The notes beneath the pieces were generated by a model. The model did no database searches, was not told the DNA's origin, and worked only from the letters and a program-made list of their open reading frames with translations. From assembly GCF_014252415.1 (NCBI RefSeq), contig NZ_CP059223.1, positions 390,001 through 422,000 of the forward strand: a stretch of DNA of 32,000 nucleotides, written 5' to 3'. The translations under genes and the position numbers were made by a program. Each line of letters opens with the position of its first letter. The stretch's first letter is position 1. The DNA is from Candidatus Saccharimonadota bacterium. Its GTDB lineage: Bacteria > Bacteroidota > Bacteroidia > Flavobacteriales > Blattabacteriaceae. Below, piece by piece: positions 11,277-18,814 of the stretch.

Positions 11277-12458
11277 ATGATTTTCATGGATAATTCTTTT
11301 TTTATCTCATCATTATTAGATAATGATTTTTATAAATTTACTATGCAAAATGCTGTTATTAAATTATTTCCTTTAGTAAAAGCTCAATACGAATTTATTA
11401 ATAGAGGAAAACATTTTTTTCCAAAAAATTTTTCTAACATTTTAGAAAAAAATATAAAGAATATGGCTCATTTAAAACTATCATATAATGAAAAAATATT
11501 TTTAAAAAAATATTGTCCTTGCTTAGATAATTCATACTTAGATTTTTTAGATAAATATCAATATAATCCAAAAGAAGTAAAAATTAAACAAAAAGGAAAA
11601 TCTATAAAAATAAAAATAAGGGGATTATGGAGTAAGACTATTTTATGGGAAGTACCATTAATGTCTATTATATCTGAACTATATTATAAATTAACTAGAG
11701 TAAAACCTCTATCAGACAAAACTATAATAAGACTAACTAAAAAAAAAATAAAAAAATATAAAGAATTAAAAGTAAAATTCGGAGAATTTGGGACAAGAAG
11801 AAGATATTCTTATCATATTCACAAACTAGTAATGAAAATTTTAATGGAAGAAGGTAAATCATTTTTTGTTGGAAGTAGCAATATACATTTATCAAAAATT
11901 TATTCAATAAAACCAGTAGGAACTCAAGGACACGAATGGATTATGTTTCATGCAGCTAAATATGGATTCAATATAGCAGATAAAATTGCTATGGAAAATT
12001 GGATAAATATTTACAATGATAGATTAGGAATAGCATTATCAGACACATATACATCTAAAATTTTTTTTAAAAATTTTAACAAAAAATTATCAAATATCTA
12101 TAAGGGAGTTAGACATGATAGTGGTAATCCTATTTCGTTTATTAATGAAACAATAACACATTATAAAAAATTAAAAATAAATCCTAATAAAAAAAAAATT
12201 ATATTTTCAGATAATATGAATCCATTCAAAGTAGATTATATTTCTTCTTTTTGTAAGGGTAAAATTACTCCATTGTTTGGAATAGGAACAAACTTCACTA
12301 ACGATGTTGGTGTTAATCCCTTAAATATAGTAATAAAAATGACAAAAATATTTATAAAAAGAAAATGGATATCAGTAATAAAATTATCAAATTCAATAGA
12401 AAAATCTACAGGAAATAAAAAAATGATTGTTTTTGCTAAAAAAAGACTTCACATTTGA
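11277..12458 (+). CDS. pncB: Nicotinate phosphoribosyltransferase
   Basis: 393 aa. LLDNDFYKFTM N-terminus, FGTRRR motif and GTQGHEW (phospho-His context). The start could be 11277 or the ATG at 11286. Confidence 0.93.
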   Translation: MIFMDNSFFISSLLDNDFYKFTMQNAVIKLFPLVKAQYEFINRGKHFFPKNFSNILEKNIKNMAHLKLSYNEKIFLKKYCPCLDNSYLDFLDKYQYNPKEVKIKQKGKSIKIKIRGLWSKTILWEVPLMSIISELYYKLTRVKPLSDKTIIRLTKKKIKKYKELKVKFGEFGTRRRYSYHIHKLVMKILMEEGKSFFVGSSNIHLSKIYSIKPVGTQGHEWIMFHAAKYGFNIADKIAMENWINIYNDRLGIALSDTYTSKIFFKNFNKKLSNIYKGVRHDSGNPISFINETITHYKKLKINPNKKKIIFSDNMNPFKVDYISSFCKGKITPLFGIGTNFTNDVGVNPLNIVIKMTKIFIKRKWISVIKLSNSIEKSTGNKKMIVFAKKRLHI

Positions 12459-12480
12459 AAATGAAATTAAAATTAGAATA

Positions 12481-13791
12481 ATGAAAAGTTTTTATATAAA
12501 AAATTATGGGTGTCAAATGAATGTAGCTGATAGTGAAATTATAACATCTATATTGTTAAAAAAAGGATTTATTTTATCTAATCATATTGAAAATGCAAAA
12601 ATTATTTTATTTAACTCATGTTCCATAAGAAAAAAATCAGAACTAACAATAAAAAATCAAATAGATAAAATAAAATATTTAAAAAATAATGGATCATTAA
12701 TTGGATTAATAGGTTGTTTTTCAAAATCTTTTAAAGAATCATTATTAAATGAAAAAAAAATTGATTTTTTTATTAATCCTGATTCTTATAGAGAAATAGA
12801 AAATAAAATTTATAATAAAAATATTGTAAAAAATTTTTATAAAAGAAAAAAAGAAACATATGAAAATATTATTCCATATAAAAAATTAGATAAAAAAATT
12901 ACTACATTTTTAAGTATAACAAGAGGATGTAATAATATGTGTACTTTTTGTATTGTCCCATTTACAAGAGGAAGAGAAGTAAGTAATAATCCCTTTCTTA
13001 TTGTTGAAGAATGTAAAAGATTACAAAATCTTGGATATAAAGAAATAACTCTTTTAGGTCAAAATGTAGATTCATATTATTGGATAGATAATAATAATTT
13101 ATCATTTAATTTTGCTAATCTATTAGAATTAATTGCTAAAAAATTACCTACTGTTAGAATACGTTTCTCTACATCTAATCCTCATGATATGTCCAATGAA
13201 GTATTAAAAATAATATCTAAATATGATAATATATGTAATCATATTCATTTACCGGTTCAATCTGGTAGTAATAAAATATTAAAATTAATGAATAGAAAAT
13301 ATTCTAGAGAAGAATATTTATTCTTAATTAAGAAAATTAGAAAATTAATTCCAAATTGTTCAATATCTCATGATATTATGACAGGATTTTGTAATGAAGA
13401 AGATAATGATCATCTTGATACTCTTCATTTAATGGATGAAATTAAATATAATTATGGATATATGTTTTCTTATTCTCCAAGACCAGGAACGTATGCTTAT
13501 AATAATCTTATAGATAATGTACCGAAAAATATAAAAAAAAAAAGATTACAAGAAATTATAAAATTGCAAAACGAACATTCATTATATAGAATGAAGGAAT
13601 TTTTAGAAAAAACTCAAAAAGTACTAATAGAAGGTACTTCAAAAAAAAGTAATAATTATTGGTACGGAAGAAATTCACAAAATATAGTAGTTGTCTTTCC
13701 AAAAAAAATAAATTTAAAAATAGGAAATATAGCATTAGTTAATGTAAAAAAATTTACGTCTTCTACTTTGATTGGAGAAGCCATAAAATAG
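12481..13791 (+). CDS. miaB: tRNA-2-methylthio-N6-dimethylallyladenosine synthase
   Basis: The track ORF starts at 12427 and overlaps pncB. The ATG at 12481 gives the canonical N-terminus MKSFYIKNYGCQMN. Radical-SAM motif CNNMCTFC and a C-terminal TRAM-like region are present. Confidence 0.93.
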   Translation: MKSFYIKNYGCQMNVADSEIITSILLKKGFILSNHIENAKIILFNSCSIRKKSELTIKNQIDKIKYLKNNGSLIGLIGCFSKSFKESLLNEKKIDFFINPDSYREIENKIYNKNIVKNFYKRKKETYENIIPYKKLDKKITTFLSITRGCNNMCTFCIVPFTRGREVSNNPFLIVEECKRLQNLGYKEITLLGQNVDSYYWIDNNNLSFNFANLLELIAKKLPTVRIRFSTSNPHDMSNEVLKIISKYDNICNHIHLPVQSGSNKILKLMNRKYSREEYLFLIKKIRKLIPNCSISHDIMTGFCNEEDNDHLDTLHLMDEIKYNYGYMFSYSPRPGTYAYNNLIDNVPKNIKKKRLQEIIKLQNEHSLYRMKEFLEKTQKVLIEGTSKKSNNYWYGRNSQNIVVVFPKKINLKIGNIALVNVKKFTSSTLIGEAIK

Positions 13792-15102
13792 TTGATCATG
13801 GAATCTATTCAAAACATAAAACATAAATTCGGGATTATTGGTTATGATTACAAATTATATAGATCTCTAGAAAAAGCTATACAAGTAGCCCCAACTGATA
13901 TTTCAGTATTGGTTCTTGGAGAAAGTGGGGTAGGAAAAGAATTTATCCCAAAAATTATTCATCAATTTTCTTGTAGAAAACATCATTCATATATTGCTGT
14001 AAATTGTGGAGCAATACCTGAAGGGACTATTGATAGTGAATTATTTGGACATGAAAAAGGATCGTTTACTGGAGCAACTAACATGAGAAAAGGCTATTTT
14101 GAAGTAGCCAATGGAGGAACAATATTTTTAGACGAAGTTGGAGAATTACCTTTAACAACACAAGTTCGTTTATTACGAATTTTAGAATCTGGAGAATTTA
14201 TAAAAGTAGGTTCTTCTAAAATTCAAAAAACTGATATACGTATTGTTGCGGCAACTAATTTAAATATGGTAGAATCCATACAAAAAGGAAAATTTAGAGA
14301 AGATCTTTTTTATAGATTAAATACAGTACAAATAAATGTACCTCCTTTACGTTTTCGTAAGAGCGATATTAAATTTTTATTTAAAAAATTTTCAAATGAT
14401 TTTGCAGAAAAATACCAAATGCCTCCTATAATATTAAATGATAAATCATTAAAATATTTAGAAAATTATCCTTGGCCTGGTAATATTAGACAATTGAAAA
14501 ATTTGGTAGAACAAGTTTCAGTAGTAGAAACTAAAAGAAAAATAAATATAGATAAATTAAAAGAATATATTCCAGAAAATAAACCTTTATTATCTATATC
14601 AAAACCTAATTTTGATTCAAATAAAAAAACTTTTTTTCATAATATTTCTAGAGAGAGGGATTTTATTTATCAAATATTATTTGATATGAAAAATAATTTT
14701 AATGATTTAAAAAATATTGTTTATCAATTAATAAAAAATAATTCTAATCCTACATTTAATAAAGAAAATAGAGATCTTATTCATCGATTATTTGGAAAAA
14801 TATTTACTTCTCAAGATGAGTCTTTAAAAAAGAATCATGAAATCATAAATAAATCTATATTTCAAATAGAAAATCCATCCTTATATAAAAATAATTTAAA
14901 TGAAAACAATTTAGATTATGAAGAAATAGAAGAAGATTTATCTAAAAAAAATTCTTCTAACTCTTTTTCATTAGAAAAAAAAGAAATTGAATTTATTCAA
15001 AAAGCTTTAAAAAAAAATAAGGGAAAAAGAAGAAAAACAGCAAAAGAATTAGGGATATCGGAAAGAACTCTTTATAGAAAAATAAAACAATATGGATTAT
15101 AA
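13792..15102 (+). CDS. Sigma-54-dependent transcriptional activator (bacterial enhancer-binding protein), AAA+ and C-terminal Fis-type HTH, no N-terminal sensory domain
   Basis: 436 aa. Walker A GESGVGKE sits at residues 43-50, so there is no room for a receiver, GAF or PAS domain. ESELFGH-like SELFGHEKGSFTGA contains the GAFTGA-type sigma-54 contact loop as GSFTGA. Walker B is GGTIFLDEVGEL, and EDLFYRL and VPPLR are present. C-terminal HTH is KTAKELGISERTLYRKIKQYGL. The start is either TTG at 13792 or ATG at 13798. Confidence 0.92.
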   Translation: MIMESIQNIKHKFGIIGYDYKLYRSLEKAIQVAPTDISVLVLGESGVGKEFIPKIIHQFSCRKHHSYIAVNCGAIPEGTIDSELFGHEKGSFTGATNMRKGYFEVANGGTIFLDEVGELPLTTQVRLLRILESGEFIKVGSSKIQKTDIRIVAATNLNMVESIQKGKFREDLFYRLNTVQINVPPLRFRKSDIKFLFKKFSNDFAEKYQMPPIILNDKSLKYLENYPWPGNIRQLKNLVEQVSVVETKRKINIDKLKEYIPENKPLLSISKPNFDSNKKTFFHNISRERDFIYQILFDMKNNFNDLKNIVYQLIKNNSNPTFNKENRDLIHRLFGKIFTSQDESLKKNHEIINKSIFQIENPSLYKNNLNENNLDYEEIEEDLSKKNSSNSFSLEKKEIEFIQKALKKNKGKRRKTAKELGISERTLYRKIKQYGL

Positions 15103-15233
15103 AATAAAAAAAATATTCTAAACAAAATATATATACACAAGTAATAAAATATAGGAATTTTAACTATTTAGAATAATAAATTTAAATCTTTGTAAAATTA
15201 AGATAGAAAATATAATAAAATTATTTAAAGTAA

Positions 15234-15277
15234 TTAGATTTTATTTAATTAAATTTTAGATTTTATTTAATTAAATT
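15234..15277. repeat. Perfect 22-bp tandem duplication (2 copies) immediately upstream of secG
   Basis: ttagattttatttaattaaatt occurs at 15234-15255 and again at 15256-15277. It ends 8 nt before the secG ATG. Confidence 0.95.
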
Positions 15278-15285
15278 TATATATT

Positions 15286-15528
15286 ATGAAATACGAATAT
15301 GCAATTAATATATTAAGTTGTTTAATTGTTATAAATTCAATATTATTTATATTAATTATTTTAATACAAAATCCAAAAAAAGAAATTGTGAATCAGTCGT
15401 TTGTAGAAAAAAATTTTAAATTCTTTGGAATAAAAAAAACAAATACTATCCTAGATAATATCACATGGTTTCTATCTATTGTCATATTTTTTTTTGTTAT
15501 CATATTTAATTATTTACTAAAAAATTAA
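15286..15528 (+). CDS. secG: Preprotein translocase subunit SecG
   Basis: 80 aa with two TM segments. The first TM is followed by LIILIQNPKKE, the Bacteroidota SecG signature region. It lies directly upstream of groES-groEL, as in Flavobacteriales. Confidence 0.75.
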   Translation: MKYEYAINILSCLIVINSILFILIILIQNPKKEIVNQSFVEKNFKFFGIKKTNTILDNITWFLSIVIFFFVIIFNYLLKN

Positions 15529-15561
15529 AAAAAAAAAATGACAAAATGACATTTTTTTTTT
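15527..15561 (+). terminator. A/T-only hairpin after secG (A12-TG / CA-T10 stem, 9-nt loop); possible weak terminator
   Basis: aaaaaaaaaaaatg-acaaaatga-catttttttttt. It overlaps the secG stop. The stem is almost entirely A-U, so its stability is doubtful. It also contains the direct repeat ATGACA-AA-ATGACA. Confidence 0.3.
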
Positions 15562-15594
15562 AATTTTACTTACACAAAACAACCAATTCATAAT

Positions 15595-15611
15595 TTGGCA
15601 TGTTTTTGGCT
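15595..15611 (+). promoter_or_regulatory. Candidate sigma-54 (-24/-12) promoter for groES-groEL
   Basis: TTGGCATGTTTTTGGCT compared with the consensus YTGGCACGrNNNTTGCW. The invariant GG (15597-15598) and GC (15609-15610) are at the canonical spacing, with two mismatches in flanking conserved positions. It lies 35 nt upstream of the groES ATG. Confidence 0.55.
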
Positions 15612-15645
15612 ATTTATCTTAATCATATAAAAAATTATTAAAACT

Positions 15646-15924
15646 ATGATGGAAGTAAAGATTAAACCTTTATCAGATCGTGTTCTTGTACAACCTGATC
15701 CCGCTGAAACTAAAACGTCATCAGGTATTATTATTCCTGATACAGCAAAGGAAAAACCACAAAAAGGAACCATAGTAGCCGTAGGTACGGGTAAAAAAAA
15801 TGAACCAATGATTTTAAAAGAAGGAGATAGAATTTTATATGGAAAATATTCTGGAACAGAATTAAAATGGGAAGGAGAAGAGTACTTAATAATGAGAGAG
15901 TCTGATGTTATAGCTATTATATAA
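15646..15924 (+). CDS. groES: Co-chaperonin GroES
   Basis: 92 aa. [12 protein letters not shown]...[24 protein letters not shown] is the typical GroES sequence. Confidence 0.98.
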
Positions 15925-15983: not shown

Positions 15984-17636
<1,653 letters not shown>

Positions 17637-18640: not shown

Positions 18641-18814
18641 TAAAACAAATCTAAATAAAAAAAATAAAATGAACTATTTTTTTTTACTTCGTTTAATTAA
18701 TTTATTCTATACGAATTCCTATTATTTAATATATTAATAATAATTTTTTATAAATTTGAGTTTATAATTACATATTATTCATCATAATTAATATTTAATT
18801 ACATTATTAAAAAA

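What the first reader, a model, noticed from the sequence alone, without database searches (positions are those of the whole stretch)
15595..15611. Sigma-54 type -24/-12 promoter directly upstream of groES-groEL
TTGGCATGTTTTTGGCT matches YTGGCACGrNNNTTGCW, with the invariant GG and GC dinucleotides exactly 12 nt apart. There are only two mismatches at conserved flanking positions. It sits 35 nt upstream of the groES ATG, in a spacer that is otherwise nearly pure A+T. I scanned every TGGC and GCCA occurrence in the window on both strands by eye, and this was the only one with a GC at the correct spacing. Chaperonin operons are classically driven by sigma-32 or sigma-70/HrcA-CIRCE, so sigma-54 control of groESL would be unusual. 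In a symbiont with very few regulators, it would give the retained rpoN/activator pair a concrete target. Candidate activator sites upstream are the direct repeat ATGACA-AA-ATGACA (15538-15551) and the inverted TGTCAT (15480-15485). That link is pure speculation.
Basis: partly seen in the sequence, partly recalled or inferred. Interest (0 to 1): 0.66.

Follow-up and report, generated by a model that had tools for sequence, protein, structure and literature searches.

The report
Sigma-54 promoter driving Blattabacterium groES-groEL
The motif is very probably a real sigma-54 promoter for the chaperonin genes of a cockroach endosymbiont, but this control is the normal inherited state across the Bacteroidota phylum and was already mapped in a free-living flavobacterium, so it is a sound but ordinary finding.

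Summary
The sequence is exactly as described. TTGGCATGTTTTTGGCT lies at 15595-15611, with GG at 15597-98 and GC at 15609-10, and ends 34 nt before the groES ATG. Within the window alone it is not significant: about 0.5 such matches are expected by chance.

Comparison makes it convincing.
- The window is Blattabacterium cuenoti.
- The 19-nt block ATTTGGCATGTTTTTGGCT is invariant in 6 of 7 Blattabacterium-type genomes. The rest of the spacer is only 47-63% identical.
- The most eroded genome changes three other bases but keeps GG and GC.
- Among free-living Bacteroidota, 69 of 77 loci carry TGGCAY-N7-G at the same place before groES. About 0.01 per locus is expected.

A sigma-54 activator gene lies 0.5 kb upstream (13798-15102). 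It has an intact GSFTGA loop and no sensory domain, and its position next to groES is conserved across the phylum.

Published transcription-start mapping in Flavobacterium psychrophilum assigns groES-groEL, dnaK, grpE-dnaJ, htpG, lon and clpB to a sigma-54 motif. A 2025 survey predicts the same across Bacteroidota.

rpoN could not be checked in this genome. The literature reports that the genus keeps it.

The parts
15593..15611 (+). Conserved 19-nt block ATTTGGCATGTTTTTGGCT. This is the sigma-54 promoter core, with the -24 element TGGCA at 15596-15600 and the -12 element TGGCT at 15607-15611.
   Evidence: Sequence read. The block is invariant in 6 of 7 Blattabacterium-type genomes. Block identity is 94%, against 47% for the rest of the spacer, or 63% over gap-free pairs. 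It is the top weight-matrix hit in the window and in 6 of the 7 relative loci; the degenerate site of the most eroded genome (L085) falls below the cutoff.
15597..15598 (+). -24 GG dinucleotide.
   Evidence: Kept in all 8 symbiont sequences. Part of the TGGCA found before groES in 72 of 77 free-living loci.
15609..15610 (+). -12 GC dinucleotide.
   Evidence: Kept in all 8 symbiont sequences, including the eroded TGGTATGTTATTAGCT of CP059204. The G is present in 70 of 72 free-living sites. The C is variable there: A 40, T 16, C 14.
15621..15623 (+). Predicted transcription start, about 11-13 nt after the C of the -12 GC. This gives a 5' UTR of about 24 nt.
   Evidence: Inferred from the standard geometry of sigma-54 promoters. 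Not measured here.
15538..15552 (.). ATGACAAAATGACAT, two TGACA pentamers at -57 and -49 from the T of TGGCA. Candidate binding site for the activator.
   Evidence: The corresponding ATGTCAT(A/T)ATG(A/G)CAT dyad lies at -55/-47 in three relatives and at -45/-37 in one. TGNCA pentamers are enriched 10- to 60-fold at -57, -47, -37 and -17 in free-living relatives. Binding was not tested.
13798..15102 (+). Sigma-54 enhancer-binding protein, 434 aa. It has an AAA+ domain with GSFTGA and a C-terminal Fis-type helix-turn-helix, and no N-terminal sensory domain. It is the likely activator of this promoter.
   Evidence: NCBIfam hits to NtrC, NifA and PspF-type activators at 1e-80 to 1e-94. Motifs read. 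All 120 orthologues carry G[AS]FTGA, with Walker A at residue 39-50. miaB-EBP-...-secG-groES synteny is seen across Bacteroidota.
15286..15528 (+). secG, the gene upstream of the promoter spacer.
   Evidence: TIGR00810, 8e-10, above the cut-off.
15646..15924 (+). groES, the first gene served by the promoter.
   Evidence: NF001531, 6e-39.
15990..17636 (+). groEL, the second gene of the operon.
   Evidence: NF009488, 1e-261.

Best explanation
The block at 15593-15611 is the sigma-54 (-24/-12) promoter of the groES-groEL operon of Blattabacterium cuenoti. It is inherited from the free-living Bacteroidota ancestor, where the protein-quality-control genes are under sigma-54.

Proposed mechanism:
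1. RNA polymerase carrying sigma-54 binds GG (15597-98) and GC (15609-10) and forms a closed complex that cannot open by itself.
2. The AAA+ enhancer-binding protein encoded 0.5 kb upstream (13798-15102) binds nearby, probably at the TGACA pentamers at 15538-15552. It contacts sigma-54 through its GSFTGA loop and uses ATP to open the DNA.
3. Transcription starts near 15622.

Shown here: the sequence, its conservation in symbionts and free-living relatives, the intact activator gene, and its conserved linkage to groES. Taken from the literature: a mapped start site with a sigma-54 motif at groES-groEL in F. psychrophilum, and retention of rpoN in the genus. Inferred: that this particular activator serves this promoter, where it binds, and where transcription starts.
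For: Sequence and spacing.

Organism: the best hits of the activator are Blattabacterium cuenoti, at 89-65% identity.

Conservation in symbionts:
- The 19-nt block is identical in 6 of 7 Blattabacterium-type genomes, inside a spacer that is otherwise 47-63% identical.
- The 511-kb genome CP059204 has TGGTATGTTATTAGCT. Three non-core changes occurred, and GG and GC were kept at the same spacing.
- The Geopemphigus symbiont has TGGCATATTTTTCGCT.

Conservation in free-living Bacteroidota:
- 69 of 77 loci have TGGCAY-N7-G within -120 to -15 of groES. The expectation is 0.0096 per locus.
- G at the -12 position occurs in 70 of 72 loci when the proximal TGGCA is chosen blind to that base.

Activator:
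- Walker A and B, GSFTGA, sensor and arginine-finger motifs and the helix-turn-helix are all intact.
- All 120 orthologues keep G[AS]FTGA.
- The synteny with groES is widespread.

No competing promoter or operator in the spacer:
- No TAnnTTTG -7 box lies in the spacer, although several neighbouring genes have one just upstream.
- No CIRCE element is present.
- There is no Rfam match.

Literature:
- F. psychrophilum 5'-end mapping lists groES-groEL, lon, dnaK, grpE-dnaJ, htpG and clpB under the sigma-54 motif SM4. It shows the same EBP-lptE...groES gene order (PMC9723704).
- A sigma-54 weight-matrix survey finds these chaperone genes enriched in Bacteroidota, most in Flavobacteriia (PMC12316311).
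- Blattabacterium keeps rpoD and rpoN (PMC3971599).
Against: - rpoN was not seen. It is not in the window, and the rest of this genome could not be reached.
- There is no transcription-start or expression data for any Blattabacterium.
- The in-window match alone is at chance level.
- In most free-living relatives the C of the -12 GC is replaced, most often by A. The phylum motif therefore departs from the textbook consensus, and its assignment to sigma-54 rests on one organism's mapping plus geometry.
- The putative activator site lies only about 50 nt upstream of the -24 element. That is closer than classical enhancer sites. It is also absent from the most eroded genome.
Confidence: 0.85

Rival explanations
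1. The conserved block is the binding site of some other factor rather than sigma-54. It could be a repressor or activator operator, or a variant promoter for the primary Bacteroidota sigma factor, with TGTTTTTG serving as a degenerate TAnnTTTG -7 box.
For: - TGTTTTTG (15601-15608) differs from TAnnTTTG by one base.
- The phylum motif YAATTTYTG is T-rich, like the -7 box.
- In many Flavobacteriaceae a TTG lies about 20 nt upstream of it, inside TTGTCAG.
- The TGNCA pentamers resemble TGGCA itself, so one protein could read both.
Against: - The invariant positions are TGGCA and a G exactly 13 nt downstream of its T, which is the sigma-54 geometry. A -7 box would not explain TGGCA.
- The G falls one position too far for TAnnTTTG in most relatives.
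- No conserved -33 TTTG lies at 19-21 nt in Blattabacterium.
- The F. psychrophilum algorithm separated the primary-sigma motifs SM1-3 from SM4 and placed groES under SM4.
Confidence: 0.08
2. The element was once a sigma-54 promoter but now works only weakly or constitutively in the symbiont. On this view groES-groEL is transcribed mainly by read-through from secG or from upstream promoters.
For: - No terminator-like site lies between secG and groES.
- The upstream dyad has lost its symmetry in the window.
- In CP059204 both the dyad and three promoter bases are gone.
- Endosymbionts generally express GroEL constitutively (general knowledge).
Against: - Complete invariance of 19 nt, including 7 G+C, in a genome of about 20% G+C argues for continuing selection.
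- The activator gene is kept intact at 65-89% identity across strains, while its neighbour lptE has been lost several times.
Confidence: 0.05
3. The motif is a chance match in an A+T-rich spacer and has no function.
For: About 0.5 matches of this quality are expected per 32-kb window. 16 of 100 shuffles reach its weight-matrix score.
Against: The same element occurs at the orthologous position in 69 of 77 free-living relatives, and it is invariant in Blattabacterium.
Confidence: 0.02

Closest known systems
Sigma-54 promoter (motif SM4) of groES-groEL in Flavobacterium psychrophilum, part of a protein-quality-control regulon (PMC9723704)
   Same: - Same operon and same class (Flavobacteriia).
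- Same neighbourhood: sigma-54 activator, lptE, ..., groES, groEL.
- A -24/-12 type motif lies just upstream of the start.
   Different: - That promoter has a mapped 5' end and expression profile. This one has neither.
- F. psychrophilum has three activators and a wide regulon. The symbiont's number of activators and other targets are unknown.
- In Blattabacterium the -12 element is a full GC (TGGCT). Most free-living Flavobacteriaceae sampled here have G followed by A or C, as in TCTGA or TCTGC.
Classical proteobacterial sigma-54 promoters with a sensor-less activator, such as pspA with PspF
   Same: - GG and GC 10 nt apart, and a TGGCA -24 element.
- The activator is made of an AAA+ domain plus a helix-turn-helix, with no N-terminal receiver or sensory domain.
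- The activator gene is next to its target.
   Different: - The targets are cytoplasmic chaperonins rather than the phage-shock membrane response.
- No PspA-like inhibitor was identified.
- The candidate activator site is about 50 nt from the -24 element, against about 60-100 nt upstream of it in classical cases.
- The activator loop is GSFTGA in this lineage.
Heat-shock control of groESL by sigma-32 or by HrcA with CIRCE
   Same: Same target operon. Presumably the same purpose, matching chaperonin output to protein-folding demand.
   Different: - The mechanism is different.
- No CIRCE element occurs in the window.
- The promoter has -24/-12 rather than -35/-10 architecture and needs an ATP-driven activator.
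Predicted sigma-54 chaperone regulons in Bacteroidota and Planctomycetota (PMC12316311)
   Same: Weight-matrix hits before GroES, GroEL, DnaK, DnaJ, GrpE and IbpA are enriched in Flavobacteriia, Bacteroidia and Cytophagia. This agrees with the 69 of 77 loci found here.
   Different: That work is a phylum-level enrichment. In the passages read, it does not name this Blattabacterium site or the upstream TGNCA elements.

Membership tests
Sigma-54 (-24/-12) promoter | GG and GC dinucleotides separated by exactly 10 nt | tested here: met
   GG at 15597-98 and GC at 15609-10.
Sigma-54 (-24/-12) promoter | Flanking consensus TGGCAC-N5-TTGCW | tested here: met
   10 of 12 defined positions match. The two mismatches are C to T after TGGCA and T to G before GC.
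Sigma-54 (-24/-12) promoter | Element conserved at the orthologous position in relatives | tested here: met
   Invariant in 6 of 7 Blattabacterium-type genomes. TGGCAY-N7-G occurs before groES in 69 of 77 free-living Bacteroidota.
Sigma-54 (-24/-12) promoter | rpoN (sigma-54) encoded in the same genome | not testable with these tools
   rpoN is not in the window. The rest of the genome could not be retrieved. The literature states that Blattabacterium retains RpoN (PMC3971599).
Sigma-54 (-24/-12) promoter | A cognate AAA+ enhancer-binding protein with a GAFTGA-type loop in the genome | tested here: met
   The ORF at 13798-15102 has GSFTGA, Walker A and B, and a helix-turn-helix.
Sigma-54 (-24/-12) promoter | Transcription start about 12 nt downstream of the GC, dependent on rpoN and the activator | not testable with these tools
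   This needs 5'-end mapping and genetics. The orthologous operon in F. psychrophilum has a mapped start assigned to the sigma-54 motif.
Sigma-54 (-24/-12) promoter | Upstream activator binding site | tested here: inconclusive
   A TGNCA dyad or repeat lies at about -57/-49. It is intact in five other Blattabacterium-type genomes, reduced to one pentamer in a sixth and missing in CP059204. The pentamers are enriched in free-living relatives. No binding data exist, and in Flavobacteriaceae the element overlaps a terminator-like hairpin.
Bacteroidota primary-sigma promoter (-33 TTTG, -7 TAnnTTTG) | A TAnnTTTG box, with TTTG 19-21 nt upstream of it | tested here: not met
   No TAnnTTTG lies between 15529 and 15645. 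The full pattern occurs nowhere in the window. The nearest candidate, TGTTTTTG, lacks the A and has no conserved -33 partner.
HrcA/CIRCE-controlled groESL | CIRCE inverted repeat TTAGCACTC-N9-GAGTGCTAA upstream of groES | tested here: not met
   No match with up to 3 mismatches anywhere in the window.

The most novel reading that the evidence does not exclude
In Blattabacterium, sigma-54 and one sensor-less activator may have been kept through more than 100 million years of genome reduction chiefly to run a minimal chaperone regulon (groESL and probably dnaK, grpE-dnaJ, clpB, htpG and lon). The activator would bind phased TGNCA pentamers unusually close to the promoter. Having no sensory domain, it might be controlled by titration through the chaperones it induces. 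That would be an undescribed heat-shock sensing circuit for the whole Bacteroidota phylum.
Probability: 0.25. Interest if true: 0.55.

Novelty: new member of a known kind. Interest (0 to 1): 0.3.

Why it matters
The finding gives the sigma-54 and activator pair kept by Blattabacterium a concrete and plausible target. That pair is unusual among insect endosymbionts. The finding also shows that the Bacteroidota way of controlling chaperone genes survives extreme genome reduction and A+T pressure.

The symbiont alignments act as a natural mutagenesis experiment: only GG and GC survive in the most eroded genome. The compact locus of activator, candidate site, promoter and groESL is a convenient minimal system for asking how a sensor-less sigma-54 activator senses protein-folding stress. 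It does not overturn anything, because the principle was already shown in F. psychrophilum.

Tried and rejected
- Exact-protein look-ups of the window's activator (two start codons) and GroEL found no public contig. The rest of this genome, and therefore rpoN, could not be examined.
Symbiont loci were obtained instead through the activator's homologues.
- Strict consensus scoring with GC required found a site before groES in only 4 relatives. Inspection showed that the -12 C is relaxed in the phylum, so the test was redone as TGGCAY-N7-G.
- Rfam gave no match.
- The sigma-70-type promoter scan was at background level, and no terminator-like site was found.
- No CIRCE element was found.
- The Bacteroidota primary-sigma pattern was absent from the spacer.
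- Two B. thetaiotaomicron transcriptome papers contain nothing on sigma-54 or groES.
- The Sabree 2009 Blattabacterium genome paper is not held.
- No other convincing sigma-54 site was found in the 32-kb window or in 9-21 kb of seven related loci, including upstream of clpX.

Full report
**What is there**

The window has about 20% G+C. It carries, on the + strand, miaB (12427-13791), a sigma-54 enhancer-binding protein (13798-15102), secG (15286-15528), groES (15646-15924) and groEL (15990-17636).

GG is at 15597-98 and GC at 15609-10. The motif ends 34 nt before the groES ATG. The repeat ATGACA-AA-ATGACA (15538-15551) and TGTCAT (15480-15485) are also present.

**Chance**

The motif is the only match to TGGCACG-N4-TTGC with 2 or fewer mismatches in the window. 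It is also the only TGGC-N9-GC on either strand. However, 0.49 and 0.54 such matches are expected per shuffled window, and 37-40% of shuffles have at least one.

A weight matrix built from relatives gives the site 15.2 bits, the best score in the window. Still, 16 of 100 shuffles reach that score.

**Organism**

The activator protein's closest relatives are about fifty Blattabacterium cuenoti proteins at 89-65% identity. Its own contig is 580,138 bp. The window is therefore from a Blattabacterium, the cockroach endosymbiont.

**Conservation among symbionts**

I fetched the orthologous locus from six Blattabacterium-type genomes and from the Geopemphigus symbiont.

- In the secG-groES spacer, the 19-nt block ATTTGGCATGTTTTTGGCT is identical in 6 of the 7 Blattabacterium-type sequences.
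- Block identity is 94%. The rest of the spacer is 47% identical, or 63% counting only gap-free pairs.
- The block holds 7 of the spacer's 21 G+C.
- The most reduced genome (CP059204, 511 kb) has TGGTATGTTATTAGCT. Three bases changed, but GG and GC are kept at the same spacing.
- The Geopemphigus symbiont has TGGCATATTTTTCGCT.
- In six of the seven relative loci the groES site is the single best matrix hit in 9-21 kb; in CP059204 (L085) the degenerate site scores below the cutoff.

**Conservation among free-living relatives**

A GroEL-based scan returned 80 loci from free-living Bacteroidota: Flavobacteriaceae, Weeksellaceae, Sphingobacteriales, Chitinophagales and Bacteroidales. Many show miaB, the activator, about 2 kb of other genes, then groES-groEL.

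A strict consensus search requiring GC found a site before groES in only four loci. Reading the upstream regions showed why. Nearly all carry TGGCAYAATTTCTG(A/C)-like sequences, in which the C of the -12 GC is often replaced.

- TGGCAY-N7-G occurs within -120 to -15 of groES in 69 of 77 loci. The expectation is 0.0096 per locus.
- Taking the TGGCA nearest to groES without regard to the downstream base, G follows at +13 in 70 of 72 loci.
- The next base is A in 40, T in 16 and C in 14.
- The motif ends 22-77 nt before the ATG, mostly 33-55 nt.

**The activator**

The 434-aa protein matches NtrC, NifA and PspF-type activators at 1e-80 to 1e-94.

- It has Walker A (GESGVGKE), Walker B (DEVGE), the sigma-54 contact loop GSFTGA, the sensor and arginine-finger motifs, and a C-terminal Fis-type helix-turn-helix.
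- All 120 listed orthologues carry G[AS]FTGA, with Walker A at residue 39-50. The family as a whole therefore lacks an N-terminal sensory domain.
- Its neighbour lptE has been lost in the window and in three other symbiont genomes, while the activator stays intact.

**Candidate activator site**

In Blattabacterium a dyad ATGTCAT(A/T)ATG(A/G)CAT lies at -55/-47 from the T of TGGCA in three genomes. In one genome it lies at -45/-37, a shift of one helical turn. In the window it lies at -57/-49, where the left half has become TGACA, so the element is a direct repeat. It is absent from CP059204.

In free-living relatives, TGNCA pentamers are enriched 10- to 60-fold over background at about -57 (TGCCA), -47 (TGACA), -37 (TGGCA) and -17. 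TGTCA sits exactly at -17 in 24 of 69 loci.

In Flavobacteriaceae the first three pentamers form a hairpin followed by a T run. That hairpin could also be the secG terminator.

**Alternatives**

- Rfam finds nothing.
- There is no CIRCE element.
- The Bacteroidota primary-sigma signature TAnnTTTG is absent from the spacer. It does occur just upstream of clpX, pyrG, nusB, the DUF3276 gene and folC.
- The full -33/-7 pattern is absent from the window.
- TGTTTTTG within the block is one base from a -7 box. It has no conserved -33 partner, and a -7 box would not explain the invariant TGGCA.

**Literature**

- In Flavobacterium psychrophilum, genome-wide 5'-end mapping found a motif (SM4) with 'the typical -24/-12 elements' of sigma-54. 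That motif lies at the starts of groES-groEL, lon, dnaK, grpE-dnaJ, htpG, clpB and skp. The same paper lists the sigma-54 regulator and lptE a few genes from groES. It confirmed by mutagenesis that conserved SM4 bases matter at another operon (PMC9723704).
- A 2025 survey with sigma-54 weight matrices reports GroEL, GroES, DnaK, DnaJ, GrpE and IbpA as enriched targets in Bacteroidota, most in Flavobacteriia (PMC12316311).
- Blattabacterium, Uzinura and Walczuchella are reported to keep both RpoD and RpoN, which that paper calls 'unusual in insect endosymbiont genomes' (PMC3971599).
- No paper in the searchable library names a sigma-54 promoter before groES in Blattabacterium.

**Conclusion**

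The element is very probably a functional sigma-54 promoter of groES-groEL, inherited from the free-living ancestor. The adjacent sensor-less activator is its likely partner.

The idea that this control is unusual is not right for this phylum. The main untested points are:
- whether rpoN is present in this genome;
- where transcription actually starts;
- which activator serves the promoter, and where it binds.

I rate it a new member of a known kind, of modest interest.

Noticed in passing
window 15103-15285: The lptE-like gene (162-204 aa) lies between the activator and secG in three Blattabacterium genomes and in the Geopemphigus symbiont. It is missing here and in three other symbiont genomes. 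Only a 183-nt A+T-rich spacer remains.
   Followed up: partly
window 15234-15278: A perfect 22-nt tandem duplication (TTAGATTTTATTTAATTAAATT, 2 copies) sits inside the spacer left by the lost lptE-like gene.
   Followed up: no
L001-L080, about 15 nt downstream of TGGCA before groES: Across free-living Bacteroidota the -12 element keeps only its G (70 of 72). The following base is A 40, T 16, C 14. Searches that require the textbook GC therefore miss most of these promoters (compare).
   Followed up: yes
L005-L034 and others, -60 to -15 relative to TGGCA: TGNCA pentamers recur at about 10-nt intervals (-57, -47, -37, -17) upstream of the groES promoter. In Flavobacteriaceae the stem sequence ATGCCAGC...GCTGGCAT is conserved across genera, which is unusual for a plain terminator.
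   Followed up: partly
L085 5639-5764 (Blattabacterium CP059204, 511 kb): The most reduced genome has a degenerate promoter (TGGTATGTTATTAGCT), no upstream dyad, a truncated secG (63 aa) and a longer gap to the groES ATG, 89 nt from the T of the -24 element. The system may be eroding there.
   Followed up: partly
window 18641-18814: An ABC transporter gene (565-580 aa) lies between the DUF3276 gene and nusB in Bge and CP059217. It is absent here and in two other strains, another strain-specific gene loss.
   Followed up: no
window 14590-14980 (activator residues about 265-395): The linker between the AAA+ domain and the helix-turn-helix is rich in Asn and Lys and of low complexity. This is probably A+T-driven drift in a poorly constrained segment.
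   Followed up: no
window 15629-15638 and the orthologous positions: A short block AAAAATTATT about 10-17 nt before the groES ATG is conserved in most of the Blattabacterium-type sequences (five share it exactly). It may be part of the translation initiation region in a lineage without Shine-Dalgarno sequences.
   Followed up: no
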